IMG/VR virus record: IMGVR_UViG_3300021400_005359
DNA from: an uncultured virus (IMG/VR IMGVR_UViG_3300021400_005359)
Taxonomy: Duplodnaviria; Heunggongvirae; Uroviricota; Caudoviricetes
Direction: 5' to 3' (one strand)
Length of the DNA stretch: 20,000 bases
Every line of letters starts with the position of its first letter. Within the stretch, counting starts at the first letter, position 1. The notes under the pieces are model-generated. The model searched no databases. It saw only the letters and a program-made list of their open reading frames with translations, and had not been told where the DNA came from. A program made the translations under genes and the position numbers. Below, in pieces: positions 1-20,000 of the stretch.

Positions 1-234
1 AACTCTCTTACTGAATTTTTCAGTAAATACAGCCTCTTCTTCATTTAAATCAAAAATAATATGACCTAAATCTATATGATAAAAATCTTCATCTTCACTA
101 AATTTACAAATATCCAAAACATCTTGAGGAATAGAAGAAACATCTTTAATTGGAATTTTTACTGTATCAACAGAAAAAGGATATTTATTTGAGGAATAAA
201 ATTTTCCATTATAATTTACTTTTAATAATTTCAA
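1..234 (-). CDS. Hypothetical protein, partial (3' end runs off the left edge)
   Basis: Translated by hand: TTG start at 234 preceded by GGAGGT SD. The frame is open to position 1 (MKLLKVNYNGKFYSSNKYPFSVDTVKIPIKDVSSIPQDVLDICKFSEDEDFYHIDLGHIIFDLNEEEAVFTEKFSKRV...). Not in the ORF track because it is truncated. Confidence 0.8.
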   Translation of the reverse strand, partial: MKLLKVNYNGKFYSSNKYPFSVDTVKIPIKDVSSIPQDVLDICKFSEDEDFYHIDLGHIIFDLNEEEAVFTEKFSKRV

Positions 235-263
235 TGAGTTTTACCTCCAATTTTTATAAATAT

Positions 264-291
264 ATTATACCATAAAACCACTAAAAATCAA
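264..291 (-). promoter_or_regulatory. sigmaA-type promoter for the partial CDS
   Basis: Minus strand TTGATT (291-286), 16-nt spacer, extended -10 TGGTATAAT (272-264). Confidence 0.6.
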
Positions 292-331
292 AGAAAAACA
301 ACTAAAATCATAGAATATCAATATTAAAATA

Positions 332-360
332 TTGAAAAATTTTCAAAAAAAATATAAACT
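332..360 (+). promoter_or_regulatory. sigmaA-type promoter for the TIGR02452 gene
   Basis: TTGAAA (332-337), 17-nt spacer, TAAACT (355-360), then GAAAGGA SD before ATG 389. Confidence 0.5.
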
Positions 361-388
361 ATAGATATAGAATGAAAGGATTTTTTTT

Positions 389-1219
389 ATGAATAAATTT
401 GATGAACAAAAAGTTTTAAGAACCGAAGCATTTCTTGACACTTTAAAGCTTTTAGAAAAAGAAGACATAAAGAAAAAGTTAGAAAATTCAAGAACAAAGC
501 TTTATAGAGAAGACAAAGAAATAGAAATAGAAAAGCAAAATAGAAGAGGAGAAATCTTAGTTTTAAAAACATCCACCCTAAATGCTTCTAAAAATTTCAA
601 AGATAAAGTATGCATATTAAACTTTGCATCTGCAACAAATCCAGGTGGTGGAGTTAAGAATGGTTCAAATGCTCAAGAAGAATCAATTTGCAGAGTAACA
701 TCTCTATATAAAGAACTTTCAACTCAATTTCTTTTTGACAATTTCTATATGTATCACAGAGAAAGAAAGAACACTTTATATACAAACAGAATAATCTATT
801 CAGAAAATGTATTAGTTTTAAAAGAGGATTTTGCTCCATACAACGCTTTTAGTGAAGATAGTCAAAGATTTATTAATGTAATTACATCTCCAGCCCCAAA
901 TATTAGAAATTTACAAGGAATAAAAGAAGAAGAGCTATTAGATATTCTAACTTCAAGAATTATAAGAATATTAGAAGTCGCAATAGAAAATAAAAATACA
1001 AACATAGTTTTGGGAGCTTTTGGATGCGGAGCTTTTGGCAATCCTCCTAAAATCGTAGCAAAAGCTTTTAAAAACGTTTTGTTTGATAAAAATTATAGAA
1101 GATATTTTGATACAATCATATTTGCAATTCTTGATAGTAAAAATACAAATAATTTTGAAATTTTCGAGTCAATACTTAGAGACCCACAGCTTATAGATTG
1201 TAGACCAGAAATTTTATAA
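389..1219 (+). CDS. TIGR02452/DUF2263 family protein (bacterial PARG-type macrodomain, putative ADP-ribose glycohydrolase)
   Basis: Motifs LNFASATNPGGGVKNGSNAQEESICR (GGG-x6-QEE catalytic loop) and LGAFGCGAFGNPP; 276 aa; good SD. Confidence 0.9.
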   Translation: MNKFDEQKVLRTEAFLDTLKLLEKEDIKKKLENSRTKLYREDKEIEIEKQNRRGEILVLKTSTLNASKNFKDKVCILNFASATNPGGGVKNGSNAQEESICRVTSLYKELSTQFLFDNFYMYHRERKNTLYTNRIIYSENVLVLKEDFAPYNAFSEDSQRFINVITSPAPNIRNLQGIKEEELLDILTSRIIRILEVAIENKNTNIVLGAFGCGAFGNPPKIVAKAFKNVLFDKNYRRYFDTIIFAILDSKNTNNFEIFESILRDPQLIDCRPEIL

Positions 1220-1225
1220 GGACTA

Positions 1226-1360
1226 ACTGTTAAGTAATCAAAAACATAGAAATATGTAGTCAAACATACTCAAAAGTGGACACAATTAAGCCTTTTGAGT
1301 ATGGACTTAACAGTAGGTTTCGAGCCCGAATTTGAGCATATTTGTATACAAATGACATTG
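1226..1360. ncRNA. Structured intergenic element (candidate ncRNA or mobile-element end remnant)
   Basis: Perfect 10-bp IR ACTGTTAAGT (1226-1235)/ACTTAACAGT (1305-1314). It encloses ACATA-GAAA-TATGT (1244-1257) and a perfect 12-bp IR CATACTCAAAAG (1265-1276)/CTTTTGAGTATG (1292-1303). It is followed by TTCG-AGCC-CGAA (1319-1330) and a 14-bp palindrome ATTTGTATACAAAT (1340-1353). Confidence 0.5.
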
Positions 1361-1378
1361 TTTTATAAGGAGATTTTT

Positions 1379-1639
1379 ATGTTTAAAATAGTTTTATTAA
1401 CAATTCTAGCTGCAACTTCAATTAATTTGCAAGTTCCAAAAGAAAATAAAGTCATAATAGAAAAAAAAGACCCTGCAGTTTTTACTTTTAGAGATGATGG
1501 TTTTACTATCAAAGCTCCAGAACATATAGACGATAAAATAATTATAAAACCAAAATATAATTTTGATTATGACTACGATTTAAAAGAAAACGAATATAAA
1601 TTTATTTTATTGAGCAATGAAAAAATTTACGATTTGTAA
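1379..1639 (+). CDS. Small hypothetical exported protein (86 aa)
   Basis: AAGGAG SD at 1367-1372 favours ATG 1379 over the track's TTG 1295. N-terminus MFKIVLLTILAATS is signal-peptide-like. A terminator follows directly. Confidence 0.7.
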   Translation: MFKIVLLTILAATSINLQVPKENKVIIEKKDPAVFTFRDDGFTIKAPEHIDDKIIIKPKYNFDYDYDLKENEYKFILLSNEKIYDL

Positions 1640-1671
1640 TAGAAAGAGGGTATTTCCCTCTTTCTATTTTT
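1638..1671 (+). terminator. Intrinsic terminator
   Basis: AATAGAAAGAGGG-TATTT-CCCTCTTTCTATT followed by T run. Confidence 0.85.
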
Positions 1672-1755
1672 GTCATAAAAAGTTTTAAATGAATTAAAAG
1701 ATTTAAAAGAAAATATAATATCTTATAAAGATATATCCTTTTAGAGGTGATTAAT

Positions 1756-1947
1756 ATGACAAATTTAAAAAATATGATTAAATATTCGCTTGACAATGAA
1801 GTTGGAGGAGCAAATGCTCAAACAATCTTCATAATTGGAGCAAGCTGTGCAGTTATTGTTGTAGCTTACGGTATAAGAACAAGAGTATATAACTGGATTA
1901 AAATGGTTGAAAAAAGAGAATCTCTAACTCTTAATAAAGCAGAATAA
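1756..1947 (+). CDS. Flp/Tad-like prepilin 1 (class III signal peptide)
   Basis: GAGGTGA SD. MTNLKNMIKYSLDNEVG|GANAQ followed by an approximately 17-aa hydrophobic helix. Leader is paralogous to the next two ORFs. Confidence 0.6.
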   Translation: MTNLKNMIKYSLDNEVGGANAQTIFIIGASCAVIVVAYGIRTRVYNWIKMVEKRESLTLNKAE

Positions 1948-1961
1948 AGGAGTTGATATAT

Positions 1962-2168
1962 ATGAAATTAATAAAACATTGTTTAAATAATGAAAATGGA
2001 GGACCTCATTTAGATGCTATTATAGCTCTAACAGTAGGATTCATTATCACATCTGGAATATGGGCTGTTGGAAGAATGATTTGGTTCTTATATTACGATA
2101 CTCCAAAAGCACCAGTTATTGATAGAGTTGGTGAAGGTGCTCAATCTGTAATCGTTGGAACACAGTAA
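1962..2168 (+). CDS. Flp/Tad-like prepilin 2
   Basis: AAGGAG SD. MKLIKHCLNNENG|GPHLD followed by hydrophobic helix AIIALTVGFIITSGIWAVG. Confidence 0.62.
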   Translation: MKLIKHCLNNENGGPHLDAIIALTVGFIITSGIWAVGRMIWFLYYDTPKAPVIDRVGEGAQSVIVGTQ

Positions 2169-2186
2169 TAAGGAGGGATAAATAAA

Positions 2187-2387
2187 ATGAATTTAAAAAA
2201 TAAAATATTATATTCTTTAGATAATGAAAATGGTGGACCATCACTTGAAGTTTTATTCTTATGTATAGTGTCCCTCGGAGCATTTGCAGCTGTTTTAACC
2301 TTAATAAAACCAAGAGTCCACGAATTAAACAGAAAAACTATCAATTTCCTAGCAAAAGGAAATGGTTTTCAAAATACTGGAGCATAA
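2187..2387 (+). CDS. Flp/Tad-like prepilin 3
   Basis: AAGGAGG SD. MNLKNKILYSLDNENG|GPSLE (canonical Glu+5) followed by hydrophobic helix VLFLCIVSLGAFAAVLTLI. Confidence 0.68.
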   Translation: MNLKNKILYSLDNENGGPSLEVLFLCIVSLGAFAAVLTLIKPRVHELNRKTINFLAKGNGFQNTGA

Positions 2388-2420
2388 AAATAAGAGGGTT
2401 TAAAACCCTCTTATTTTTTT
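2386..2420. terminator. Bidirectional intrinsic terminator
   Basis: AAAAATAAGAGGGTTT-A-AAACCCTCTTATTTTT between convergent genes. Confidence 0.9.
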
Positions 2421-2422
2421 CA

Positions 2423-3229
2423 TTACTTTTGAGTATTAAAATACTTATTAATAAAAGTATTAATTGAATCCATATCTTCTCCCATTTCTGAAGAAGTATC
2501 AATACTTCCTTCTGGAAGGAAAAGATAATTTTTGTTTTCATCAATAATAAGATTTCCATCTTTATCTCTTTGAACAGGTTCTTGTTCAAAGTCACCAGTA
2601 ATAATTCCAAACATATCAGTAGCTGAATATTTATAGTAATAGTCAGTACCCCTAATATCATTAACTATTGGATTGTATTCAATAATAAAGTTACCAACAA
2701 GTTTTGTTACTGATTCTCCAAGAGTAAATCTTTCATTGTCAATACCTTCTGCTGTCTGATAAATATATTCAAGTTCCATTGATTGTCCTTGAATATATAA
2801 AGCATAAGACTTAAGCATATTAGTATAAAGTTCTTCATAGTCAGCATTTTTATCACTAGGAGCATTATTTTCCATTCTAGAAATAATTTCTCCTTCAGCA
2901 ACAATTATATTAGAAAGTTCTTTCTTTTCTGCTTCAGAATAAGAAGAATAATCTCTAGAAATTTTTGCTGTATTATCAAAAGCTACCATATTTTCAATAA
3001 ATGCATCATTTTGTTCTATTAAAAATCTCCCATATTCATTTTCATAATTATAATCATAAAAATAAATAGTAAAACCAGTAGTATAGTTAAAATACTTGTA
3101 GATGGCAAGTAAAAGTAAGAAAATAGTAACAATTACAAGACATATAATTCCTAAAACTTTTAAAATTTTTTTAGTTTTAGAAGGTTTCTTTTCTTTAACT
3201 TTTAGCTCTTTAGTTAGTTTATTACTCAT
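2423..3229 (-). CDS. Hypothetical membrane-anchored protein (268 aa)
   Basis: GGAGG SD; basic N-terminus, one TM helix (VLGIICLVIVTIFLLLLAIY), then an acidic, probably helical, extracytoplasmic domain. Confidence 0.85.
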   Translation of the reverse strand: MSNKLTKELKVKEKKPSKTKKILKVLGIICLVIVTIFLLLLAIYKYFNYTTGFTIYFYDYNYENEYGRFLIEQNDAFIENMVAFDNTAKISRDYSSYSEAEKKELSNIIVAEGEIISRMENNAPSDKNADYEELYTNMLKSYALYIQGQSMELEYIYQTAEGIDNERFTLGESVTKLVGNFIIEYNPIVNDIRGTDYYYKYSATDMFGIITGDFEQEPVQRDKDGNLIIDENKNYLFLPEGSIDTSSEMGEDMDSINTFINKYFNTQK

Positions 3230-3240
3230 AAAAAACCTCC

Positions 3241-4098
3241 TTACTCAACTTTTTCAACAAGACCATATTGTCCAAGTATTTCAACAGAATCTTCATAATT
3301 TAAAGGAAGTACAGTCATTTTAATGTAATTTAAATTATCTCCTGAACCAAAAGCATCTCCATTTAATCTACTTAAATCAACAAGCCAATTCCAATCATTT
3401 GAATAAACAAGAACTAAGAATCTATCACCATAATCATTTAAAATATCACATTGAATTTTATCCTGACATAACCATTTCAAAGAATTCCAAGCTCTATCAA
3501 AAACTTCTGTATCTGAAAATACTTCACTGTACCAAATAGCATTATCAACACCAATAAGACCATCTTTATACATATGATAAGTAAATTTCCAAGCATTTGA
3601 AGCAGTTTTTACGTTTTCTTTTGTTAAAGTCTTAGGAACTGTAATTGTTAAAGTTTTATTTCCATCAATTTTTTCTCCATTAGAATCAACATAATCGCCT
3701 CTTTCAATTGTAGCAACATCTTCTAATGCAAGATATTTTTCACTTGTAGTATTTTCTGAAATATTCAAAGTAGTATCTAAAAGATTTTCATTATCTTCTT
3801 CTTTAACAAGGTCTTGATTCATAAGTCCTTCATAATAATAAGTAATAACATTTTCATTTACTCCATATGAAAAGATAGAACCAAGAGATAAATACTGAAG
3901 TCCAAGAGCCTCTAAATAAGTAACTCCCCCTTCAGGTTCTTTATATCCGTAAAGCCTATTTATAGTATCTTGATTAAAAGAAATGTCTGATATTGTATCT
4001 TTCTGGAATCCTAAAAATACTACTAAAAATAAGACTATTAAAGACAATATAGAATATTTAAAATTAGAATCCTTTAAAGATTTTAAAAAACTTTTCAC
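3241..4098 (-). CDS. Hypothetical exported or membrane-anchored protein (285 aa)
   Basis: GTG start with GAGGT SD; N-terminal hydrophobic helix; 11-bp gap to the downstream gene suggests an operon. Confidence 0.85.
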   Translation of the reverse strand: MKSFLKSLKDSNFKYSILSLIVLFLVVFLGFQKDTISDISFNQDTINRLYGYKEPEGGVTYLEALGLQYLSLGSIFSYGVNENVITYYYEGLMNQDLVKEEDNENLLDTTLNISENTTSEKYLALEDVATIERGDYVDSNGEKIDGNKTLTITVPKTLTKENVKTASNAWKFTYHMYKDGLIGVDNAIWYSEVFSDTEVFDRAWNSLKWLCQDKIQCDILNDYGDRFLVLVYSNDWNWLVDLSRLNGDAFGSGDNLNYIKMTVLPLNYEDSVEILGQYGLVEKVE

Positions 4099-4118
4099 TA
4101 AAATAACCTCTTTTCTTT

Positions 4119-4150
4119 TTGAATTTTTTTATAATAATCTATATATTATA
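4119..4150. promoter_or_regulatory. Overlapping divergent promoter elements
   Basis: Plus strand TTGAAT (4119-4124)-17-TATATT (4142-4147); minus strand TATAAT at 4150-4145. Confidence 0.4.
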
Positions 4151-4221
4151 TAAAGAATACTACAAAAAAAGAACATTTAAAATAAAAAATTTGCTTAACT
4201 AAAAAAGAAAGGATTTTTTAT

Positions 4222-5403
4222 ATGGATTATTTCAATAATACGTTAAAAACAGACTTCAAAGAAGTCACTTTTGATTTTCCTATAAAAGAAGTAGTTCTCT
4301 ATAAAGGAATGTACATTGTACTTATATCCCCTTTAGATAACCTTGAGTATCCATTAAATGTATATGGAGTAAATAATCAAGGAGATATAATGTGGAAAAT
4401 TAAGTCTTTTAATGGAGAACAAATAATCTTTGATAAAATAGAAATAAATATTTCTAATGGAAAATTATATTTAAAGGATATGAATCACTTTAAATATGTT
4501 GTAGATGCAGAAACAGGAGAAATCTTGTCAGGTAAAATCAGACCTTTAGAAGAAGATTCTTTTCAAGAGGATAAAAAATCTCCTATAAGTAAAGTAAAAT
4601 CTGCAGCAACTTCATCAAAAAATATGATTGATAAAGCATCTTCATTTAACCCTAAAACAATTCTCATAATTTCTTTTATAATAATTGTATTTTTGTTATT
4701 TAAATTAATGGGAAAAAGTATTGAGATAAACTCTCTTAATAAAAAGAACACAGAACTTTCAAATCAAATAACAGCCTATGAAGAAGCTTTAGTTTTACAG
4801 GAACAAAAACTTAAAACTTATGAAGATTTAATTCTTAATTTAAGAGAAAATTCATCTGGTCTACAATCTTCTCAAACTCAAAATGGAGTAACAATTATAG
4901 ATAGTAACCAAACACAAGAAACTCAAGAAGCACAAGAGACACAAGAAACTACTCCTACAAGAGAAAAGCAAGTAAATAGCGGAGTTTCAACAGTAATTGA
5001 TGTAATTGATTCAATTATTGGAAATGTTTCATCTGGAACTCCTACAACAATAGAAGATGTAAACAAACCTAAATATCAAGAAGGTTACGCAGTAGAAAGT
5101 ATTATAGATGGACAGAGAATGACTATTTCAGATGGTGTGGAGACAATTAATGTTAAACTTATAAGTGTTTCAGAATGTAAAAAAGAAACATTAGAAGCAT
5201 TATTCCCTGTTGGAAGTCAAGTATTTGTAGAAACTGATTCTAAAAAGTACGACGAAGATGGATATCTTCTTGCTTATGTTTGGTCAACAGAACCAAATCC
5301 AAATAATATGAATACTATGGCAAATTACGTAATATTGAAAAACGGTTATGGAAAATTTGTTATGGAATCCCCAAACATTAAATATAACAGATTTTTCTTC
5401 TAA
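4222..5403 (+). CDS. Membrane-anchored multidomain protein with a C-terminal degenerate thermonuclease (SNase)-like domain
   Basis: Beta-rich N-domain, TM helix (ILIISFIIIVFLLF), coiled coil and Q/E/T linker. The C-terminus VESIIDG...VKLISV...GSQVFVETD...DEDGYLLAYVW...MANYVILKNGYG...PNIKY follows the SNase motif order. Confidence 0.75.
   Translation: MDYFNNTLKTDFKEVTFDFPIKEVVLYKGMYIVLISPLDNLEYPLNVYGVNNQGDIMWKIKSFNGEQIIFDKIEINISNGKLYLKDMNHFKYVVDAETGEILSGKIRPLEEDSFQEDKKSPISKVKSAATSSKNMIDKASSFNPKTILIISFIIIVFLLFKLMGKSIEINSLNKKNTELSNQITAYEEALVLQEQKLKTYEDLILNLRENSSGLQSSQTQNGVTIIDSNQTQETQEAQETQETTPTREKQVNSGVSTVIDVIDSIIGNVSSGTPTTIEDVNKPKYQEGYAVESIIDGQRMTISDGVETINVKLISVSECKKETLEALFPVGSQVFVETDSKKYDEDGYLLAYVWSTEPNPNNMNTMANYVILKNGYGKFVMESPNIKYNRFFF
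4912..4947 (+). repeat. In-frame 4 x 9-bp tandem repeat (TQE/TQE/AQE/TQE linker)
   Basis: ACACAAGAA ACTCAAGAA GCACAAGAG ACACAAGAA. Confidence 0.8.
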
Positions 5404-5406
5404 TAA

Positions 5407-5434
5407 AAAAGAGAGGCTTTAAAGCCTCTCTTTT
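5407..5434. terminator. Bidirectional terminator (perfect 28-bp palindrome)
   Basis: AAAAGAGAGGCTTTAAAGCCTCTCTTTT between convergent stops. Confidence 0.9.
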
Positions 5435-12529: not shown

Positions 12530-12542
12530 GCTCTCTTTTTTT
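12514..12542. terminator. Bidirectional terminator overlapping the upstream stop codon
   Basis: AAAAGAGAGC-ATTTAA-GCTCTCTTTT. Confidence 0.85.
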
Positions 12543-13326: not shown

Positions 13327-13394
13327 AAAAATCTCTCCTTTCATATATAGTATATATGTTTTTTTTATAAAAAAAATTTAATATAGTTTTATAC

Positions 13395-14402: not shown

Positions 14403-14928
14403 GGAATATCTAGACAGAGCACTGGACTTTTCAGATGATTTCGAAGAAGAAAAGCCAGAAAAGACAGAAGAACCTAAAACAATAGAAAAGAAAGATAAGA
14501 AAGAACTTAAAAAGTACGAAGGAAGAAAGAACGTTACTTCTGTTCAAAAAAAGAAGAAACAAACTTCTACTAGAGTTCAAAAGAAGCTAGTTTCCATTTC
14601 TGAAAAGAATAAACAAGTCTTAGATATTCTTGAAAACTTAGACAAGAAATATACTTCAGAGTCTGAATACATATGTCAGGCAATTATAGAAAAATTTGAG
14701 AGAGACTCTTCAAAAGACGAAAAGAGCTTAAAAGATTCTATTAAAGAAGTTCTTGAAGAAATGGTAGGTGAAAAATTTATTGTTATGAAGAGTTCTTCTG
14801 ATGTTGTAATTCCTACTACCTCTCCTGCAACTAATATACAACCAAAAGAAGAAATTCCTACAAACAATAATAATAGTGATAGTGCTGACCTCATTAGAGG
14901 AGCTCTTGATATGTGGGATGAAGAATAA
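14389..14928 (+). CDS. ParR-like adaptor / putative ribbon-helix-helix DNA-binding protein
   Basis: ATG 14389 with AGGTG SD, overlapping the parM end by 14 nt; RHH-like segment KKLVSISEKNKQVLDILENL...SESEYICQAIIEKFE; disordered linker and short amphipathic C-tail DLIRGALDMWDEE. Confidence 0.7.
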   Translation: MSTDKEYLDRALDFSDDFEEEKPEKTEEPKTIEKKDKKELKKYEGRKNVTSVQKKKKQTSTRVQKKLVSISEKNKQVLDILENLDKKYTSESEYICQAIIEKFERDSSKDEKSLKDSIKEVLEEMVGEKFIVMKSSSDVVIPTTSPATNIQPKEEIPTNNNNSDSADLIRGALDMWDEE

Positions 14929-14958
14929 AAAAGGAAGCGTATTTAACGCTTCCTTTTT
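14928..14958. terminator. Bidirectional terminator
   Basis: AAAAAGGAAGCGT-ATTTA-ACGCTTCCTTTTT. Confidence 0.9.
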
Positions 14959-14960
14959 GT

Positions 14961-16331
14961 TTATTCAGCTAACTCAAAAGATGTACCAAGAAGTCTGGTC
15001 TTAACCCTATTTTTAATATGACCTCTAGGCATAGTCTCTAAAGTCTTTAAATCTTCAACAACATCATCAACGTATCTTGAAAGGTTAACATCTCTTTCGA
15101 CTGTAAAACTTACAAGCTGACGATTTGTCCCAATTAACTTAGGAAGTTCAGTAATGCACTCAGCATTATCAATGAACATCGGATAACTAATTCCTATATA
15201 TTCCATAAGATAATCAGAAAGTTGAATTCCAGCTTTAACCTGTTCAGCAAATGAACACTCTTTCAAAGGAACTCCTTTGTAAAGAATCTGAAAATCAGTA
15301 TTACCTAAAGCATCTTTGAAAGAAAATGTAATATCAGGAACCTTCTTTTCAATTCCAATCTCTGAAAGGATTGTTTCGTAGAACTCTTCTACATAATCAA
15401 GGTTCTTTTCAATATCTTTATTTTCTTCTGTAAGCTTCTCAATATCAGCCTCATTTTCAGCAATCTTAGTTAAAGCATTATTGTACATACCAAATCTTTC
15501 AATAGCCTGAGCTCTCTGAGCTTTCTGTTCCATAAAAAGCTTAACAAGATTTTTGTTTGCTTCGCTTGGATTATTAGAGTATTCGTCCATAACAGTTTCA
15601 AAAGCAGCAGATTCAGTATAAATAATACCCTTGATATTGTACTCATCAGCTGGCATCTCATAAGCATCAACCATTTTAAGCTTCTTAATTTCAGCTTTAA
15701 GTTCTTTAATCATATCTTTATTCTGCTTAATGTTATCTTCAAAATGCTCTCTAACAGTTTCAATATCCTGTTCCTCAAGCTCGTCAATCAAAGCATTAAA
15801 AGCTTCTTCAGACATACTAGAAAGAATATCTTCAGTACTAATACCTTTCATTGAAATGAATTTGATAAGCAAAGCCTTGGCTGCAGAAATGGATAAAGAA
15901 GAAAGATATTTAGGATTAATAAGAGACAAAAATACATCCTTATCCCAAAGTTTCTTCCATTCAGTAGACTTTATTTCTCTGTGGTCAACAAAAAGTGTTG
16001 AAGTCTGTTTACCTGTAGCTGTTACATTAAAAATTCTCTTAAATACAGTATTAATATTGTCTACTCTAGCCTCAATCTCTACAAATGTTTCAGTTGAAAT
16101 TTCACCAGCCTTAGAAAAAGCAACTTTACTGTTGGCATTTCCAAAAGCATCTGTATAACAAAATACAAAAGCAACTGCATCTAATATAGTAGATTTTCCA
16201 GCTCCATTCTGACCAATAATTTCGCTTGTATCATCAAAATCAATGAAAAGCTCACCTTCAATTCCCATAAAGTTATGAAGTTTCATAGATTTGATTTTGA
16301 TTATATCAGCATCTAAATAACTAGTCATCAT
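14961..16331 (-). CDS. Rad50/SbcC/SMC-like ABC-type ATPase with a short coiled coil
   Basis: IKIKSMKLHNFMGI start, Walker A GQNGAGKST, central coiled coil, degenerate signature CSFAEQVKAG, Walker B/D-loop PMFIDNAE; AGGAGG SD. Confidence 0.85.
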   Translation of the reverse strand: MMTSYLDADIIKIKSMKLHNFMGIEGELFIDFDDTSEIIGQNGAGKSTILDAVAFVFCYTDAFGNANSKVAFSKAGEISTETFVEIEARVDNINTVFKRIFNVTATGKQTSTLFVDHREIKSTEWKKLWDKDVFLSLINPKYLSSLSISAAKALLIKFISMKGISTEDILSSMSEEAFNALIDELEEQDIETVREHFEDNIKQNKDMIKELKAEIKKLKMVDAYEMPADEYNIKGIIYTESAAFETVMDEYSNNPSEANKNLVKLFMEQKAQRAQAIERFGMYNNALTKIAENEADIEKLTEENKDIEKNLDYVEEFYETILSEIGIEKKVPDITFSFKDALGNTDFQILYKGVPLKECSFAEQVKAGIQLSDYLMEYIGISYPMFIDNAECITELPKLIGTNRQLVSFTVERDVNLSRYVDDVVEDLKTLETMPRGHIKNRVKTRLLGTSFELAE

Positions 16332-16538: not shown

Positions 16539-17207
16539 ATGGCAAAAAATCAATTTAAATTTAAAATAGAAAATAACAAATACTACAAACTTGGATTTTT
16601 AAACTGGAAAGAAATAACAAAAAGTGATTATATAAATGAACTTGATAAAGATATTTCCAATATAGGAAGAACCCAAAATTTTAATTTGTTTAAATATTTA
16701 AACGATAAATATGAAGTTGATTTCTATAATGGAAAATCAACTTATGGTGAAGAAGTTTCTTGTCAGTTTACAAATTGGGATAATAATTTAATGGAAACAC
16801 AAAACGGATATGCAGGAAATTTATCTTTCACAATCTTAATCAAATCTAAAAAAAATGGAAATCCTCTTGCTCAAACACAGTTTAATACGTTTTTATCTCT
16901 TCAAAAGAAGGTTTCAAAAAATCTTTTACAGATGCTTTTTGAAAGAGCTTATTCTGGAACATTTGAAAATCCTTGGCTTGAAGAAGATATTTATAATGAG
17001 ATGAAAAGCTGTGGAATTGTAAATCAGGATGCTGAACTTACTTTTTGTTGCGAAACTTGTAACCAAAAGTTCAATTCTTTAAATGAACTTTTAGCTCATC
17101 TAATTGATGAAAACCACTATGATAACATATTATATTTACATAGGAATAATCCAGAATTTGGAAATATATATAAGAGATTACTTCCTTTTAAGAAAGGAGA
17201 AAATTAA
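16539..17207 (+). CDS. Hypothetical protein with one C2H2-type zinc finger
   Basis: FCCETCNQKFNSLNELLAHLIDENH matches F-x-C-x2-C-x3-F-x5-L-x2-H-x5-H. Confidence 0.8.
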   Translation: MAKNQFKFKIENNKYYKLGFLNWKEITKSDYINELDKDISNIGRTQNFNLFKYLNDKYEVDFYNGKSTYGEEVSCQFTNWDNNLMETQNGYAGNLSFTILIKSKKNGNPLAQTQFNTFLSLQKKVSKNLLQMLFERAYSGTFENPWLEEDIYNEMKSCGIVNQDAELTFCCETCNQKFNSLNELLAHLIDENHYDNILYLHRNNPEFGNIYKRLLPFKKGEN

Positions 17208-17213: not shown

Positions 17214-17783
17214 ATGACAAAAGATACAAAAGATACTAAAACTAAAGTTCAAAATACAGAAAAAAAGGATATAAAAAATGAAGTACAGCAAGAAATAATG
17301 TCTTGGATAAAAGCAGGAATTATAACTTTATTTGCATATATTTTTATAAACTTTTTTATATTTACAGCAAGAGTTGATGGTCCATCAATGCTTTCAACTT
17401 TTACACACGGAGATTTAATCTTTGTAAATAGAATAGCTTACTCAAGAACTCTTCCAGAATATGAAGATGTTGTAATTTTTACAAGTAATACAAGAGGATA
17501 TGAATTAATAAAAAGAGTAATTGGTCTTCCTGGTGACCATATTGTCGTAAAAGATGGTCAAGTATATAGAAACGGAACTCTTTTACAGGAACCTTACTTA
17601 GATGATGGAATTGTTACCGAAGGAGATATAGATACAATCGTAAATGAAGGTTTTATATTTGTTATGGGTGATAATAGACCTAATTCAGCAGATTCGAGAA
17701 TTGACGAAATAGGTCAGGTATCAATGGATTCTGTAAAAGGAAAAGTATTCTTAAGAATAATTCCAAATCCTAAATTCTTTTAA
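17214..17783 (+). CDS. lepB: Signal peptidase I (S26 family)
   Basis: One TM helix; box B VDGPSMLSTF (catalytic Ser), box D LIKRVIGLPGD (catalytic Lys), box E FVMGDNRPNSADSR. Confidence 0.95.
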   Translation: MTKDTKDTKTKVQNTEKKDIKNEVQQEIMSWIKAGIITLFAYIFINFFIFTARVDGPSMLSTFTHGDLIFVNRIAYSRTLPEYEDVVIFTSNTRGYELIKRVIGLPGDHIVVKDGQVYRNGTLLQEPYLDDGIVTEGDIDTIVNEGFIFVMGDNRPNSADSRIDEIGQVSMDSVKGKVFLRIIPNPKFF

Positions 17784-17789: not shown

Positions 17790-17818
17790 AAAAAGGTGGT
17801 TTTAAACCACCTTTTTTT
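17790..17818 (+). terminator. Intrinsic terminator after lepB
   Basis: AAAAAGGTGGTTT-T-AAACCACCTTTTT(TT). Confidence 0.9.
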
Positions 17819-17825: not shown

Positions 17826-17854
17826 AAAAAAGCCTGCATAAAGCAGACCTTTTT
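17826..17854 (-). terminator. Second, minus-strand-specific terminator for the 181-aa gene
   Basis: Minus-strand RNA GGUCUGC-UUUAU-GCAGGCU-UUUUU pairs fully only with G-U pairs on the minus strand. Confidence 0.75.
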
Positions 17855-17862
17855 AAAATTAT

Positions 17863-18408
17863 TCAATTTTCTGACTTCTTGTAGAAGCCCTTAGTACCTC
17901 TGAATTCAAGAACAGCTTTCTCATCCTTTACTCCAAGAAATTCACATTCCTTGCTAATAAAGTTCTGGAAGTTATATTCGCTAGAGCCGTCCTTTGAATA
18001 TCTACCTTGTTTACCACTCAAATTGATGTAGTAATGGAAGTCTTTTCCATTTACAAGGCAATCCACATAGATTCTACGAGGATTATCAGAAGGCCAAGAT
18101 GCCATTTTCTTAATGGCGATATTGAGATTGTCATTGGCAACATTTGCACCAACACCAATTTCAATTTTTGTTGAAGATTTTACTACTTTTTTAGCTTCAT
18201 AGTTACGTCCAAGAAACTGCTGACAAACATTGTTCATCCAAACAATATCTTTACTGGAAATCTTAGCTCCAAGATTTTCAAGCTTTTCAACAAAAGCTCT
18301 AACATCTCCATCAATAGTAATAACCTGACCATTGACATTAGCTTCTCTTAACCAGTAGCCAACCTCTCTAGGATTTCTTGAAGAAAGTAAATTAAATCTA
18401 ACAAACAT
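17863..18408 (-). CDS. Hypothetical protein (181 aa)
   Basis: GAAAGGT SD; extended -10 TGATATAAT at 18506-18498; own terminator; no family recognised. Confidence 0.8.
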   Translation of the reverse strand: MFVRFNLLSSRNPREVGYWLREANVNGQVITIDGDVRAFVEKLENLGAKISSKDIVWMNNVCQQFLGRNYEAKKVVKSSTKIEIGVGANVANDNLNIAIKKMASWPSDNPRRIYVDCLVNGKDFHYYINLSGKQGRYSKDGSSEYNFQNFISKECEFLGVKDEKAVLEFRGTKGFYKKSEN

Positions 18409-18580
18409 TCTTTGTACCTTTCTGTCATTGTGACCGAATGGAAAATTGATTCTTCCCTTTTTTATATAATTAATAGTTTCTAATTTATTATATTTATATT
18501 ATATCACTTTTAAAACTATATTTTTAGACTTTTATGAAAAATAAAATTTATTAAATTTTGCAAAAATACTTGACATAACA

Positions 18581-18609
18581 AAAAAGAAGTCCTTTTAGGG
18601 CTTCTTTTT
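18581..18609 (-). terminator. Intrinsic terminator after the 412-aa gene
   Basis: AAAAAGAAGTCC-TTTTA-GGGCTTCTTTTT (one imperfect pair). Confidence 0.7.
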
Positions 18610-18633
18610 AAAATTAAATTAAGTTAACTTAAG

Positions 18634-19872
18634 TTAAGTAAAATCAATATCTTCTTCGTCAGGAGCATTCATAGTTCCAAAATCATCATCTCCTGGCTCA
18701 TCATCTCCATCATTTCCCATTGAAAATACCTGTTGAGGGATAAATCCATCAAGGAAATCATTAGAATTATCAATTTCTACTTTAATATTATTAGCTTCTT
18801 CTTCATATACAGCTGTTTCATCTATTTCTTTATCATCGATAGTAATCTTATTGTCAACTATATCATCAAAAGGACTTTCATCATCTTCTTTTATTTCTAA
18901 AGGATTAATTTCAGGTTTAACTTCTTCTTTTTCAACTTTTTCAACTTTTTTTACAGGAGCTTCATTTTCTAAAGGCTTTACTTCTTTTTCCTTAACTGAA
19001 GAATCTATGAACTTAGTATCTTCATCTTCATCCTTAAAAGCTTCTTTAGATTGAATAAGCTGTGTCTGAATTTCATCAAGTTCTTTAGAATTAATTATCT
19101 CTTCTTTACCTTTATTTTTTGGAGGCTGAGAAGAAATAAAGTCTTTCTTAAGTTCAATAGGCTGTAAATTATAGAATTTAATACCAGTCTTTATATTAAA
19201 CTTTTTCTCAACAACTTTATCAATATTATGAACTTTTGAAACAATCCCTGTAATTGATTCTTCAGAAATAGTATTAACATTTATATGATATCTATAATCA
19301 ACACTAAAACCATCAACACTTTGATTATAATAAACTTTTGAAAAACCTTGTGCAAATTCAGAAGTTTCAGGCTTTATTTCTGATACAATCTCCTTAAAAA
19401 TCTTAGAAAGTCTAAGAACTGCAAACTTTTCAGCAAAACCTCTTTTCTTCATAACTGCAGGCATCTCATCATCTGTAAGTCCAAAATAAATTTTAATAAA
19501 TTCTGGAGTAATAGAATATTGCTTAATAATAGTAATACAATCATTATCAACGTTGTTTTCAGTTTCAACAAATCTTGTAAAGCCTTGCTTAACCAAAGCA
19601 GTATTGACAATAGCTCTAAGCTTATCAAACTCTTCAACAAGTTCTTTCATACTCTTTAAGAATTCTCTATGACTCATAACTTCTGTCTCAAAATTCTTCA
19701 AAGAAAAAGCATCATCTAAAATTAATTCTTTTATTTTCTCGTCACAAACATTTTTTGTAACTAAATTATCTACACAAGTTTGTAAAGACAAATCAACTAT
19801 AGGAGAATAATGCTTCATATATTCTCTCTTATAGTCAATTAAGAGTTTTCCTGTCTTATTTATTCTATCCAT
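18634..19872 (-). CDS. Hypothetical protein (412 aa): folded N-domain plus a long acidic disordered tail
   Basis: GAAAGGA SD; C-terminal approximately 150 aa are D/E-rich and end ...GDDDFGTMNAPDEEDIDFT. Confidence 0.85.
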   Translation of the reverse strand: MDRINKTGKLLIDYKREYMKHYSPIVDLSLQTCVDNLVTKNVCDEKIKELILDDAFSLKNFETEVMSHREFLKSMKELVEEFDKLRAIVNTALVKQGFTRFVETENNVDNDCITIIKQYSITPEFIKIYFGLTDDEMPAVMKKRGFAEKFAVLRLSKIFKEIVSEIKPETSEFAQGFSKVYYNQSVDGFSVDYRYHINVNTISEESITGIVSKVHNIDKVVEKKFNIKTGIKFYNLQPIELKKDFISSQPPKNKGKEEIINSKELDEIQTQLIQSKEAFKDEDEDTKFIDSSVKEKEVKPLENEAPVKKVEKVEKEEVKPEINPLEIKEDDESPFDDIVDNKITIDDKEIDETAVYEEEANNIKVEIDNSNDFLDGFIPQQVFSMGNDGDDEPGDDDFGTMNAPDEEDIDFT

Positions 19873-19944
19873 AAGAAAAAATCCTTTCTTTTTTTAGGTA
19901 TAACTATATTTATATTCTATATAATATTTTTCAAAATATAAAAA

Positions 19945-19973
19945 ATAAAAGAGGGTTATAAGCCCTCTTTTAT
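19945..19973. terminator. Hairpin, probable terminator of a gene beyond the right edge
   Basis: ATAAAAGAGGGTT-ATA-AGCCCTCTTTTAT. Confidence 0.65.
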
Positions 19974-20000
19974 AAAAAACTTTAAAATTATTTAAATAGT

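What the first reader, a model, noticed from the sequence alone, without database searches (positions are those of the whole stretch)
1..20000. Window looks like part of a large plasmid-like extrachromosomal element carrying its own housekeeping-gene copies
Seen: a parM-parR pair, a stand-alone Rad50-like ATPase, a pilin cassette, about half unrecognisable ORFs, and about 13 strand switches in 20 kb. Most genes have their own promoter and terminator. Known: Firmicutes chromosomes are strongly co-oriented, rnr commonly lies in secG-rnr-smpB, and lepB often in rplS-lepB-ylqF-rnhB. None of those neighbours is here. Inference: a megaplasmid, secondary replicon or plasmid-like jumbo phage of a Clostridia host that supplies its own RNA turnover (RNase R), protein export processing (SPase I), membrane proteostasis (rhomboid-like) and ADP-ribose removal. 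It may be an undescribed replicon family.
Basis: partly seen in the sequence, partly recalled or inferred. Interest (0 to 1): 0.75.

Follow-up and report, generated by a model that had tools for sequence, protein, structure and literature searches.

The report
Piece of a giant gut plasmid
This stretch is most likely part of a very large plasmid-like DNA element from an uncultured gut bacterium of sheep and cattle; it is related to giant plasmids already sequenced in Bacillus and Clostridium relatives and carries its own versions of a few housekeeping-type enzymes.

Summary
The window has 22 genes at 27% GC with 12 strand switches, and about half the ORFs match no family. It encodes ParM with a ParR-like gene, a full RNase R, signal peptidase I, a bacterial-type PARG, a rhomboid-fold membrane protein, an SMC/Rad50-like ATPase and three tandem Flp-like prepilins.

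The plasmid reading is supported. An ORFan at 18634-19872 has relatives in only 11 of 72,556 plasmids. All 11 are 127-722 kb non-mobilizable Bacillota megaplasmids. It has none in 50,697 phage records and none in 401 sampled genomes. In five such complete plasmids, ParM, lepB and this ORFan family occur in 5 of 5, and lepB sits beside the ORFan relative.

The same five all carry a 422-467 aa replication-relaxation protein, built like the Inocle marker InoC, next to a Tad pilus locus. The window's RNase R falls in a clade with the RNase R of the Aneurinibacillus 722-kb plasmid, with that of the Alkaliphilus 436-kb plasmid as its sister, away from chromosomal Bacilli rnr.

Replication genes, circularity, size and host were not seen, because only 24.7 kb was readable. 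I rate it a new ruminant-gut member of a known but barely characterised kind.

The parts
1..234 (-). First 78 codons of a 466-aa PcfJ-like protein. The rest lies upstream of the window and is seen in L048.
   Evidence: L048:3573-4973(-) matches PF14284 at 76.6 bits. L048 is 100% identical to window 1-6016. A 98% identical copy stands on record with a 464,774-bp contig.
389..1219 (+). Bacterial-type poly(ADP-ribose) glycohydrolase (PARG/TIGR02452).
   Evidence: PF10021 at 121 bits and TIGR02452 at 199.6 bits, cut-off 50. GGG-X7-QEE at residue 86 (the motif is recalled). 34% identical homologue on the Aneurinibacillus 722-kb plasmid.
1295..1639 (+). Small protein with a hydrophobic N-terminal segment, no family, followed by a terminator hairpin at 1638-1668.
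1747..2387 (+). Three tandem Flp-like prepilin candidates (1747-1947, 1953-2168, 2187-2387).
   Evidence: Shared leader ending in GG, then a hydrophobic helix, with E or D at +5 in 2 of 3 if cut between the two G. DNA repeat D1. Profile hit at E 0.01 to the two Flp-position ORFs of the BTB_502p Tad locus. No curated family hit.
2423..4098 (-). Two membrane-anchored ORFans (2423-3229, 3241-4098).
   Evidence: No family. N-terminal hydrophobic segments seen in the translations.
4222..5403 (+). ORFan with a mid-protein transmembrane segment and a weak C-terminal thermonuclease-like stretch.
   Evidence: NF047694 at E 2e-5, far below cut-off, and phrog_20876 at E 1.6e-4. Leads only.
5433..6332 (-). 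Rhomboid-superfamily-fold polytopic membrane protein with a C-terminal Cys-rich zinc-ribbon-like tail.
   Evidence: Atlas feature score 0.97 with 233 of 256 features shared, and TM 0.65 to rhomboid/DUF1751/DER1 clusters over residues 1-211. No Pfam hit.
6481..7710 (+). ORFan of 409 aa.
   Evidence: No family.
7742..9202 (-). ORFan with a lipoprotein-type signal (…LLLSGCGKK) read by eye.
   Evidence: Translation. No family.
9401..11491 (+). Ribonuclease R of a plasmid-associated lineage.
   Evidence: TIGR02063 at 650.2 bits, cut-off 597.85. RNB at 390 bits, plus CSD2 and OB_RNB. PIRRY at residue 553. Trees.
11588..12529 (+). ORFan with a homologue on C. perfringens megaplasmid pJFP838A.
   Evidence: tblastn 30% over 185 aa, E 1e-18.
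12541..13344 (-). ORFan with one hydrophobic segment.
13464..14402 (+). ParM-type actin-like segregation ATPase.
   Evidence: PF17989 at 61.3 bits and phrog_691 at E 4e-52. Best plasmid hit is the Aneurinibacillus 722-kb plasmid at 42%. Relatives at 93% and 92% on record with 122,089- and 464,774-bp contigs.
14380..14928 (+). ParR-like adaptor candidate, called by position only.
   Evidence: Overlaps the parM stop. A small gene follows parM in the Aneurinibacillus and Geobacillus plasmids too. No family hit.
14961..16331 (-). SMC/Rad50-like ABC ATPase of 456 aa.
   Evidence: AAA_23 at 50.6 bits and AAA_15 at 36 bits. Only weak N-terminal hits to defence ATPases. Partial homologues on pJFP838A and the Aneurinibacillus plasmid.
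16539..17207 (+). 222-aa protein with a weak C2H2-like zinc finger, directly upstream of lepB.
   Evidence: Sub-threshold Pfam hits. A 230-250 aa hypothetical gene directly precedes lepB in 3 related plasmids. In pJFP838A a 699-bp and a 351-bp gene precede it. No sequence similarity was found.
17214..17783 (+). Signal peptidase I (LepB).
   Evidence: TIGR02227 at 134.2 bits, cut-off 47, and PF10502 at 128 bits. SM at residue 58 and KRVIGLPGD at residue 100. Homologues at 32-46% on 5 of 5 megaplasmids.
17863..18408 (-). ORFan of 181 aa.
18634..19872 (-). Marker ORFan: a conserved 230-aa N-terminal domain (helical bundle plus a T3S-chaperone/YbjN-like alpha/beta part) and an acidic tail.
   Evidence: 11 of 72,556 plasmids, all megaplasmids. 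0 phage records. 125 representatives in 1.84 billion proteins. Profile hits 5 of 5 megaplasmids against 0 of 401 genomes. Model pLDDT 94.4. Best VIA-align Z 7.9.
14928..14958 (.). Example of the bidirectional terminator hairpins between convergent genes. Others lie at 1638-1668, 2386-2418, 5407-5434, 7711-7738, 11496-11529, 12514-12539, 17790-17816 and 19945-19973.

Best explanation
The window is an internal segment of a large, low-GC, plasmid-like extrachromosomal element from an uncultured Bacillota host in the ruminant gut. It belongs to a group of giant plasmids (127-722 kb in isolates) found in both Bacilli and Clostridia.

In the five complete members I examined, the shared backbone is:
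- an actin-like ParM followed by a small gene;
- a lepB gene next to a member of the 18634-19872 ORFan family;
- a roughly 450-aa replication-relaxation protein built like the Inocle marker InoC;
- a Tad/Flp pilus locus beside that protein;
- often a divergent UDG-like gene.

How it probably works:
- Inferred from homology: ParM filaments with the ParR-like adaptor segregate the low-copy element.
- Inferred: the three Flp-like prepilins are extra pilins for a Tad pilus whose machinery lies elsewhere on the element.
- Inferred: its own signal peptidase I serves the many element-encoded membrane and secreted proteins. At least 9 of the 22 genes here have hydrophobic or signal segments by eye.
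- Shown by the tree: the RNase R belongs to a lineage that travels with such plasmids rather than with host chromosomes. What it does for the element is speculative. One possibility is control of RNA decay.
- Speculative: PARG and the UDG-like gene may reverse ADP-ribosylation and handle uracil in DNA, perhaps as counter-defence.
For: 1. Marker ORFan. Window 18634-19872 hits 11 of 72,556 PLSDB plasmids. All are non-mobilizable Bacillota megaplasmids of 127-722 kb. It hits 0 of 50,697 phage records. A profile of its family hits 5 of 5 megaplasmids at E 1e-57 to 1e-81 and 0 of 401 genomes drawn evenly from the phylum of G001.

2. Shared genes. I ran a local tblastn of 26 proteins (21 complete window ORFs and 5 from L048) against five complete plasmids. 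ParM matched in 5 of 5 (27-42%), LepB in 5 of 5 (32-46%) and the ORFan in 5 of 5 (26-32%). UDG-like matched in 3 of 5 and the ATPase partially in 2 of 5. PARG, RNase R and orf11588 each matched in 1 of 5.

3. Microsynteny. lepB lies next to the ORFan relative in 5 of 5. In Geobacillus pGspE55-1 the order ParM, small gene, lepB, ORFan spans 6 kb, as it does in the window.

4. Best plasmid hits. The best PLSDB hit for both ParM (42%) and RNase R (43%) is the same 722-kb circular Aneurinibacillus plasmid, where the two genes lie 12 kb apart.

5. RNase R tree (41 rows, LG+G4, SH-aLRT). The Aneurinibacillus plasmid's RNase R sits inside a 15-row clade (support 100) with the window and 13 unnamed metagenome proteins. 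The Alkaliphilus 436-kb plasmid's RNase R is sister to that clade (support 98). Two chromosomal-type Bacilli RNase R branch elsewhere, one of them in secG-rnr-smpB context.

6. Clade member P0066 is on record with a 426,386-bp contig. An InoC-like protein, P0322, is on record with a contig of the same length.

7. PF13814 proteins of 422-467 aa occur in 5 of 5 plasmids and 0 of 14 control genomes. A T2SSE ATPase and an A24 prepilin peptidase lie within about 12 kb of them in 5 of 5.

8. No close relative of the window's RNase R was found in one-genome-per-species collections. The best was 45% in the pattern scan and 48% among 401 genomes. Metagenome proteins reach 99, 75 and 71%.

9. pJFP838A is described as circular, 404.5 kb, 24.74% GC and 70.2% hypothetical (PMC4747519, section 20). 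This resembles the window.

10. PcfJ-like proteins occur in 550 plasmid and 325 phage records. This points to a mobile-element association.
Against: - No replication gene, InoC-like gene, relaxase, Tad machinery or T4SS gene lies in the 24.7 kb I could read (window plus 4.7 kb of L048).
- Circularity, full size and the absence of rRNA or ribosomal genes were not testable.
- The look-up for an InoC-like gene found none of the window lineage's contig lengths (115,067; 53,234; 122,089; 464,774; 927,709) among the 120 listed of 344 hits.
- A ParM relative at 71% is on record with a 927,709-bp contig, and an RNase R relative at 46% with an 887,875-bp contig. Both exceed any verified member (722 kb) and could be chromosomal.
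- Identities to the isolate plasmids are low (26-46%).
- RNase R, LepB and UDG also exist on every chromosome. For RNase R the plasmid hit (43%) is no closer in identity than chromosomal ones (up to 48%); only the tree separates them.
- PcfJ is absent from all five related plasmids.
- The trees are quick searches without bootstrap, on rows I selected.
- Equal 'longest contig' lengths suggest the same contig but do not prove it.
Confidence: 0.78

Rival explanations
1. The window is ordinary chromosome of an uncultured, low-GC, small-genome Bacillota lineage of the ruminant gut. The ParM-like actin, RNase R and LepB are its own chromosomal genes. The resemblance to megaplasmids reflects old gene flow.
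For: - RNase R passes the equivalog cut-off and looks intact.
- Its relatives form a ladder of 99, 75, 71, 56, 53 and 50% identity, like a species lineage.
- Relatives stand on record with contigs of 887,875 and 927,709 bp.
Against: - 11 of 22 genes have no family, and there are 12 strand switches.
- The marker ORFan family was found in 0 of 401 sampled genomes but in 5 of 5 megaplasmids.
- The clade contains the RNase R of a closed 722-kb plasmid, and that of a closed 436-kb plasmid is its sister. Both come from isolates of other classes or orders.
- No species-representative genome holds a close RNase R.
- rnr and lepB lack their usual neighbours.
- The PcfJ-like protein is 98% identical where RNase R is 71%, which a purely vertical history does not explain well.
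Confidence: 0.1
2. The window belongs to a huge phage or phage-plasmid of a Clostridia host.
For: - ParM matches phrog_691 and RNase R matches phrog_13933 at E 5e-161.
- RNase R-like genes at 34-35% identity occur in 635-642 kb 'uncultured phage' records.
- PcfJ-like genes occur in 325 phage records.
- Hodor megaplasmids were first filed among huge phages (PMC12934698, section 5).
Against: - No capsid, portal, terminase or tail family appears among the 20 window proteins scanned against PHROGs.
- Four IMG/VR scans found nothing close. These were ParM alone, an exact 43-mer, the RNase R alignment and the ParM alignment, which found only 30-36% relatives.
- The marker ORFan has 0 hits in 50,697 phage records.
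- HK97 capsid PF05065 occurs in 0 of 5 related plasmids. Only one capsid family was tested.
- The many membrane and lipoprotein genes fit a plasmid better.
Confidence: 0.06
3. The window is a megaplasmid-type element that has integrated into a chromosome, or a chromid that has become essential.
For: - The very long contigs on record for relatives (888-928 kb) would fit integration.
- Housekeeping-type genes (rnr, lepB, UDG-like) are what chromids carry.
Against: - No integrase or junction lies in the sequence seen.
- All five isolate relatives are separate circular records.
- pJFP838A was absent from the second strain sequenced in that study, JFP55 (PMC4747519, section 20). Inocle_004 was lost in liquid culture (PMC12340149, section 10). 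Such elements are therefore dispensable.
Confidence: 0.06

Closest known systems
Orphan megaplasmids of isolates: Aneurinibacillus sp. plasmid NZ_CP116888.1 (722 kb), C. perfringens pJFP838A (404 kb), B. thuringiensis Bt407 BTB_502p (502 kb), Clostridioides sp. pESW1602 (306 kb), Geobacillus subterraneus pGspE55-1 (127 kb)
   Same: ParM, LepB and the 18634-family gene occur in 5 of 5, with lepB beside that gene. UDG-like occurs in 3 of 5. PARG and RNase R occur on the Aneurinibacillus plasmid, and that RNase R falls in the window's clade. All are mostly hypothetical genes. GC is low in the Clostridia members (24.7-25.1%). Flp-like tandem ORFs occur in BTB_502p.
   Different: Protein identity is only 26-46%, with no DNA similarity by megablast. 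The hosts are cultured soil, water or pathogen isolates, while the window comes from ruminant gut metagenomes. PcfJ occurs in 0 of 5. RNase R is absent from four of the five. Their InoC-like and Tad genes have no counterpart in the stretch I could read.
Inocles, giant plasmid-like elements of oral Streptococcus (Kiguchi et al. 2025, PMC12340149; sections 8, 10, 11 and passages read)
   Same: Giant size, low GC (24-32%), mostly unknown genes and about 20% membrane or cell-wall genes. They have their own S26 signal peptidase. Their marker InoC (average 454 aa, N-terminal PF13814) has the same length and domain layout as the protein found in 5 of 5 related megaplasmids.
   Different: No InoC sequence was available, so homology is not shown. 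A word search of the supplementary annotation found no 'ribonuclease R', 'ParM' or 'PcfJ', and 'LemA' in one Inocle. That annotation is Prokka-based, so absence is weak evidence. Inocles carry VirB4 and VirD4, and none is in the window. Their habitat is human saliva.
Hodor conjugative megaplasmids of the human gut (Yuan et al. 2026 preprint, PMC12934698; abstract and sections 5 and 7 read)
   Same: Bacillota megaplasmids of more than 200 kb with ParM/StbA and a large surface-protein module. They were overlooked or misfiled as huge phages in metagenomes.
   Different: GC is 44.6-47.1% against 27% here. They have Rep_3, ParA/ParB, sortases, VirB4/VirD4 and a MOBH-like relaxase, none of which is seen here. 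The paper has no mention of signal peptidase, ribonuclease or Tad.
Type II (ParMRC) plasmid partition loci
   Same: An actin-like ATPase gene followed by a small overlapping gene.
   Different: No family hit for the ParR candidate. No clear parC repeat array in the 119-bp upstream spacer.

Membership tests
Giant Bacillota plasmids sharing the ParM / lepB-ORFan / InoC-like / Tad backbone (operational group defined here from five complete plasmids) | ALP/ParM gene followed by a small gene | tested here: met
   Window 13464-14928. ParM homologues on 5 of 5 plasmids. A small gene follows ParM in the Aneurinibacillus and Geobacillus plasmids.
Giant Bacillota plasmids sharing the ParM / lepB-ORFan / InoC-like / Tad backbone (operational group defined here from five complete plasmids) | lepB adjacent to a member of the 18634-19872 ORFan family | tested here: met
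   In the window, lepB is at 17214-17783 and the ORFan at 18634-19872, with one extra gene between them. The two are adjacent in 5 of 5 plasmids.
Giant Bacillota plasmids sharing the ParM / lepB-ORFan / InoC-like / Tad backbone (operational group defined here from five complete plasmids) | Replication-relaxation (PF13814) protein of about 450 aa | not testable with these tools
   Not in the 24.7 kb available. The full contig could not be fetched.
Giant Bacillota plasmids sharing the ParM / lepB-ORFan / InoC-like / Tad backbone (operational group defined here from five complete plasmids) | Tad/Flp pilus locus (T2SSE ATPase, A24 prepilin peptidase, Flp pilins) | tested here: inconclusive
   Only three Flp-like prepilin candidates are present (1747-2387), with a weak profile link at E 0.01. 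The machinery is not in view. It is present in 5 of 5 plasmids.
Giant Bacillota plasmids sharing the ParM / lepB-ORFan / InoC-like / Tad backbone (operational group defined here from five complete plasmids) | Separate circular replicon of more than 100 kb | not testable with these tools
   The window's proteins are on record with a 115,067-bp contig. Its topology is unknown.
Inocle (PMC12340149) | InoC marker gene (more than 70% identity among the 13 initially identified Inocle contigs) | not testable with these tools
   No InoC sequence is held. Only the architecture could be compared in relatives.
Inocle (PMC12340149) | VirB4 and VirD4 present | not testable with these tools
   None among the 27 proteins scanned. 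The rest of the element was not seen.
Hodor megaplasmids (PMC12934698) | GC about 45-47% with Rep_3, ParA/ParB and multiple sortases | tested here: not met
   Window GC is 0.23-0.34 per kb. No Rep_3, ParA/B or sortase hit among the proteins scanned.
ParMRC type II partition system | Actin-like ParM ATPase | tested here: met
   PF17989 at 61.3 bits against a cut-off of 26.3. NF010498 at E 4e-15, below its cut-off.
ParMRC type II partition system | ParR adaptor and parC repeats | tested here: inconclusive
   A downstream 182-aa gene with no family hit. No repeat array in 13345-13463.
Ribonuclease R (TIGR02063) | Equivalog score over cut-off, with RNB and cold-shock/OB domains | tested here: met
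   650.2 bits against 597.85. RNB at 390 bits, CSD2 at 73 bits and OB_RNB at 37 bits. The C-terminal S1 domain was not detected by Pfam in the window's protein.
Signal peptidase I (TIGR02227 / S26) | Score over cut-off and Ser/Lys boxes | tested here: met
   134.2 bits against 47. SM at residue 58 and KRVIGLPGD at residue 100 (the box names are recalled).
Bacterial-type PARG (PF10021 / TIGR02452) | Score over cut-off and the GGG-X6-8-QEE signature | tested here: met
   121.4 and 199.6 bits. GGGVKNGSNAQEE at residue 86 (the signature is recalled).
Rhomboid intramembrane serine protease (PF01694) | Sequence match to the family and a Ser-His dyad | tested here: inconclusive
   No Pfam hit at E up to 5. 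Fold and feature neighbours are rhomboid/DUF1751/DER1 clusters. I could not place a catalytic Ser or His by eye, so it may be an inactive rhomboid-like protein.
Flp/Tad type IVc pilin | Short prepilin, G at the cleavage site, acidic residue at +5, hydrophobic helix | tested here: inconclusive
   The size and helix fit in 3 of 3. E or D at +5 occurs in 2 of 3. No Flp family hit. E 0.01 to BTB_502p Flp-position ORFs. A double-glycine leader peptide is an alternative reading (recalled).
Tailed (jumbo) phage | Capsid, portal, terminase and tail genes | tested here: not met
   None among 20 window proteins against PHROGs. This covers only the 20 kb in view.

The most novel reading that the evidence does not exclude
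The window, the orphan megaplasmids of Bacillus, Paenibacillaceae, Geobacillus, Clostridium and Clostridioides isolates, and possibly the oral Inocles, are branches of one ancient superfamily of giant Bacillota plasmids. Its backbone would be an InoC-like replication-relaxation protein beside a Tad pilus locus, a ParM segregation system, and a lepB gene paired with a T3S-chaperone/YbjN-fold protein. One branch would have kept its own RNase R lineage while moving between Bacilli and Clostridia hosts. The ruminant-gut lineage seen here, with relatives on contigs of 53 to 465 kb and perhaps 928 kb, would be a common, unbinned and so far unnamed part of that superfamily.
Probability: 0.45. Interest if true: 0.7.

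Novelty: new member of a known kind. Interest (0 to 1): 0.55.

Why it matters
Giant plasmid-like elements of Gram-positive bacteria have only recently been recognised as common in microbiomes, for example Inocles in saliva and Hodors in the human gut. They are usually lost from bins and from culture.

This window shows a further lineage in sheep and cattle guts, held by 20 runs from 11 studies. It also ties that lineage by shared genes and gene order to closed plasmids of cultivable Bacillus, Geobacillus, Paenibacillaceae and Clostridium strains. That gives laboratory handles for genes that are otherwise metagenome-only:
- the lepB plus chaperone-fold pair;
- the InoC-like plus Tad block;
- a plasmid-borne RNase R lineage.

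It also warns annotators that rnr, lepB and UDG-like genes in MAG contigs need not be chromosomal markers.

Tried and rejected
- Whole genome: none is held.
- Megablast of the window against phages and plasmids found no match.
- An exact 43-mer in IMG/VR gave nothing. In metagenome contigs it gave one 10,755-bp contig (L048), which adds only 4.7 kb.
- IMG/VR scans with ParM alone, the RNase R alignment and the ParM alignment gave nothing, nothing, and six loci at 30-36% that share only ParM.
- Earlier-findings look-ups by place, by sequence (twice) and by words were all empty.
- The GTDB 'order of G205' search turned out to hold only 13 genomes and had no hit.
- PADLOC gave only weak N-terminal ATPase matches, so I make no defence-system call.
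- No parC-like repeats were found upstream of parM.
- Promoter enrichment was not found.
- The Atlas search for the marker ORFan gave no usable neighbour.
- Foldseek against the PDB found nothing at E 0.001 or better.
- VIA-align gave a best Z of 7.9 to a type III secretion chaperone, with many chaperone and YbjN rows at Z 5-7. This is in the 'middling' range, so the fold assignment is a lead only.
- The contig-length look-up for an InoC-like gene on the window's own lineage was negative within the 120 rows listed.
- The Inocle supplement word search gave no ParM, RNase R or PcfJ.
Synteny and variation across samples were therefore not examined, and habitat rests on the word-share table alone.
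- I did not run complex prediction for LepB with the ORFan domain. The ORFan has no signal or membrane segment, while the LepB catalytic domain is extracytoplasmic, so direct binding seemed topologically unlikely.
- The first tree run with the mixture model did not finish. The trees reported use LG+G4 quick searches.
- One literature search was badly worded and uninformative apart from one passage on pESW1602.

Full report
**What is in the window.**
The window is 27% GC (0.23-0.34 per kb) and densely coded. It holds 22 genes covering about 18.2 of 20 kb, with 12 strand switches across 21 junctions and no tRNA.

Curated families are met by these genes:
- a bacterial-type PARG (389-1219; TIGR02452 at 199.6 bits);
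- ribonuclease R (9401-11491; TIGR02063 at 650.2 bits against a cut-off of 597.85);
- a ParM-type actin (13464-14402; PF17989 at 61.3 bits);
- an SMC/Rad50-like ATPase (14961-16331; AAA_23);
- signal peptidase I (17214-17783; TIGR02227 at 134.2 bits);
- a PcfJ-like protein, taking the gene cut by the window's start as a whole.

Eleven of the 22 genes have no family.

The membrane protein at 5433-6332 has no Pfam hit even at E 5. The ESM Atlas places it among rhomboid/DUF1751/DER1 clusters (score 0.97, TM 0.65).

Terminator-like hairpins are enriched (16 against 4.9 +/- 2.7) and sit between genes. Promoter-like sites are not enriched.

The 'ParR' is called by position only. The 'pilin cassette' rests on a motif and one weak profile match.

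**Where it comes from.**
No genome is held for the window. Megablast finds nothing in 50,697 phage or 72,556 plasmid records.

An exact 43-mer finds one metagenome contig, L048 (10,755 bp). It is 100% identical over window 1-6016. It adds 4.7 kb upstream holding a TraX-family protein, a divergent UDG-like gene, LemA, a 455-aa Zn-ribbon ORFan and the full PcfJ-like gene.

Exact-sequence look-ups put the window's proteins on a contig of 115,067 bp. Copies more than 90% identical are on a 53,234-bp contig.

The DNA is held by 20 public runs from 11 studies labelled sheep, bovine or 'gut' metagenome.

**Relatives of single genes.**
Among 5.8 billion protein clusters, the RNase R has relatives at 99, 75 and 71% identity. 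These are on record with contigs of 53,234, 122,089 and 464,774 bp. Six more clusters lie at 50-56%. Below that come chromosomal enzymes such as Sarcina's at about 44%.

In one-genome-per-species collections the best RNase R match was 45% in the pattern-limited scan. It was 48% among 401 genomes drawn evenly from one phylum.

ParM has relatives at 93% and 92%, with the same 122,089- and 464,774-bp contig lengths. One at 71% is on record with a 927,709-bp contig. About 55 clusters lie at 50% or above, and nearly all are unnamed.

The PcfJ-like protein is 98% identical to one on record with the 464,774-bp contig, and the 455-aa ORFan is at least 90% identical. Conservation is therefore uneven: PcfJ and ORF455 are most conserved, then ParM, then RNase R. 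That pattern fits a mobile-element backbone with faster-evolving cargo better than uniform vertical descent. It does not prove it.

**The decisive link.**
In PLSDB, the best hit of both ParM (42%) and RNase R (43%) is the same closed 722-kb plasmid of an Aneurinibacillus isolate. The two genes lie 12 kb apart there, among hypothetical genes, clpX, recG and NADAR genes.

The ORFan at 18634-19872 hits only 11 of 72,556 plasmids. All are non-mobilizable Bacillota megaplasmids of 127-722 kb:
- Paenibacillus thiaminolyticus (360 kb);
- Brevibacillus (414 kb);
- P. polymyxa SC2 (510 kb, two records);
- B. thuringiensis Bt407 BTB_502p (502 kb);
- Aneurinibacillus (722 kb);
- C. perfringens pJFP838A (404 kb);
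- Geobacillus pGspE55-1 (127 kb);
- Jeotgalibacillus (603 kb);
- C. difficile BI1 (301 kb);
- Clostridioides sp. pESW1602 (306 kb).

It hits no phage record. In 1.84 billion representative proteins the family has just 125 members, mostly stand-alone proteins of about 230 aa.

A profile of the family finds 5 of 5 fetched megaplasmids (E 1e-57 to 1e-81). It finds 0 of 401 genomes sampled from the phylum of G001.

I fetched five of these plasmids whole and searched them with 26 proteins of the window and L048:

| Gene | Plasmids with a match | Identity |
|---|---|---|
| ParM | 5 of 5 | 27-42% |
| LepB | 5 of 5 | 32-46% |
| ORFan 18634-19872 | 5 of 5 | 26-32% |
| UDG-like | 3 of 5 | 32-36% |
| ATPase (partial) | 2 of 5 | - |
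| PARG | 1 of 5 | 34% |
| RNase R | 1 of 5 | 43% |
| orf11588 | 1 of 5 | 30% |

In all five, lepB lies next to the ORFan relative. In the Geobacillus plasmid, ParM, a small gene, lepB and the ORFan relative lie within 6 kb, as in the window.

**The wider backbone of those plasmids.**
All five carry one protein of 422-467 aa with an N-terminal replication-relaxation domain (PF13814). The same search rings in 0 of 14 control genomes. The five proteins are 31-50% identical over their full length.

This is the length and layout reported for InoC, the marker of the oral 'Inocle' elements, which averages 454 aa with an N-terminal PF13814 domain (PMC12340149, section 8). I had no InoC sequence, so homology is not shown.

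Within about 12 kb of that gene, each plasmid has a T2SSE-family ATPase and an A24 prepilin peptidase. In BTB_502p the annotated block reads as follows:
- replication-relaxation protein, HTH regulator, AAA ATPase;
- CpaB, AAA ATPase, T2SS/T4P ATPase;
- two hypotheticals, two 61-aa ORFs, two further hypothetical ORFs (the first begins with a G-FGLFEY pseudopilin-like motif), prepilin peptidase.

Those two 61-aa ORFs are the only hits at E 0.01 or better of a profile made from the window's three small ORFs, among 22,472 ORFs. They share the leader pattern LxN/GExG | (G/A)xxxE followed by a hydrophobic helix. This gives the pilin reading some support. A double-glycine leader peptide remains possible (recalled knowledge).

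A search with the pJFP838A InoC-like protein finds 344 clusters. Among the 120 listed, the longest contigs on record top out at 739,256 bp. Named members are plasmids or draft contigs of Bacillus, Paenibacillus, Brevibacillus and Clostridiaceae. None of the window lineage's contig lengths appears in those 120 rows. However, one row (P0322) shares the 426,386-bp contig length with RNase R P0066.

**RNase R does not follow the hosts.**
The first tree had 66 rows and used LG+G4 with SH-aLRT. I left out two partial rows, L009 and L031. In it the window sits in a clade of 14 unnamed metagenome proteins (support 100). That clade is weakly sister to Sarcina (support 83).

The second tree had 41 rows:
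- the 16 database proteins;
- 21 of the 52 locus-derived rows, chosen to span the first tree;
- four rows from plasmid-collection records.

In that tree the RNase R of the Aneurinibacillus plasmid falls inside the clade, which now has 15 rows (support 100). It is 57% identical to P0107. The RNase R of the closed 436-kb Alkaliphilus plasmid pB6464 is its sister (support 98). Two chromosomal-type Bacilli enzymes branch elsewhere, one of them in pgk-tpiA-gpmI-eno-secG-rnr-smpB context.

So a plasmid of a Bacilli host carries an rnr that is kin to the window's, not to Bacilli chromosomal rnr. The trees are quick searches without bootstrap and should be repeated.

**The lepB partner.**
With a 77-row alignment, the conserved 240-residue domain of the ORFan folds with mean pLDDT 94.4. 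Foldseek finds no PDB match at E 0.001.

VIA-align lists many type III secretion chaperones (SycN/YscB Z 7.9, InvB 6.5, VecA 6.3, SchA 6.1 and others). It also lists YbjN-family proteins (AmyR 6.7) over residues about 76-234. These Z values are in the range the tool calls middling, so this is a lead only.

The lead would be a cytoplasmic chaperone-fold protein conserved next to the element's signal peptidase. I did not test binding.

**Comparison with what is known.**
- pJFP838A was reported as a 'unique mega-plasmid'. It is 404.5 kb and circular, with 24.74% GC, 490 CDS, 10 tRNAs and 70.2% hypothetical genes (PMC4747519, section 20).
- BTB_502p was reported as 'a novel 502-kb megaplasmid' (PMC3569317, search listing only).
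- pESW1602 appears only as a table entry (PMC8942030, one passage).
- Inocles (PMC12340149) and Hodors (PMC12934698 preprint) show that such elements are common in human microbiomes. Hodors differ clearly, with GC of 45-47%, Rep_3, ParA/B, sortases and T4SS.

They cover open-access PMC and bioRxiv only. I found no paper that treats the isolate megaplasmids above as one family, and none that reports such elements from ruminants. Subscription journals and unread supplements may hold more.

**Verdict.**
The window is most likely (about 0.78) a piece of a giant plasmid-like element of this group in a ruminant-gut Bacillota host.

Not shown:
- its replication genes;
- its circularity and size;
- its host;
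- whether the 888-928 kb contigs on record for distant relatives are plasmids or chromosomes.

The functional story is inferred from homology. It covers ParM segregation, Tad/Flp pili, own signal-peptide processing, own RNA decay and ADP-ribose removal. The roles of RNase R, PARG and UDG-like for the element are speculative.

Noticed in passing
L048:2194-4973 and window 1-234: The PcfJ-like protein (98%) and the adjacent 455-aa Zn-ribbon ORFan (at least 90%) are far more conserved than RNase R (71%) between the window lineage and proteins on record with a 464,774-bp contig. The pair may be a core or recently exchanged module. PcfJ is absent from all five related isolate plasmids.
   Followed up: partly
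L062 (Aneurinibacillus plasmid NZ_CP116888.1, record 464750-470813): A second, weaker member of the 18634 ORFan family (E 2.5e-26) lies 3 kb upstream of the plasmid's rnr, next to recG. The same plasmid carries clpX, two lepB copies and NADAR genes near ParM.
   Followed up: partly
L176 (Priestia megaterium p2_CACC119, 410 kb): This 'plasmid' record carries pgk-tpiA-gpmI-eno-secG-rnr-smpB in canonical chromosomal order. It looks like a chromosome piece or a chromid rather than an accessory plasmid.
   Followed up: no
L174 (BTB_502p, record 478920-500487): A macro-domain protein, two DNA methyltransferases, an HU protein and a sigma-70 family factor flank the InoC-like/Tad block. ADP-ribose-processing genes (macro, NADAR, PARG) recur in three elements of this group.
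   Followed up: no
L048:856-1575: The UDG-like protein has GMEPYP where family-1 UNG has its GQDPY motif (the motif is recalled). It scores below all NCBIfam UNG cut-offs, yet it is conserved at 32-36% on three megaplasmids.
   Followed up: partly
window 18613-18648: An overlapping palindrome (TTAAATTAAGTTAACTTAAGTTAAG) lies just downstream of the stop of the 18634-19872 gene, after a terminator-like hairpin at about 18590-18612.
   Followed up: no
one search hits H3-H17: Several 'phage' records with full RNase R genes (Staphylococcus, Listeria and Enterococcus 'phages', many of them short unannotated contigs) look like host DNA filed as phage.
   Followed up: no
W06 (Alkaliphilus pB6464, record 260276-260773): This record has only a sub-threshold PF13814 match (19.4 bits, 482-aa frame). 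Its rnr lies among hypothetical genes next to a T2SS/T4P-family ATPase. It may be a more distant branch of the same kind of plasmid.
   Followed up: partly
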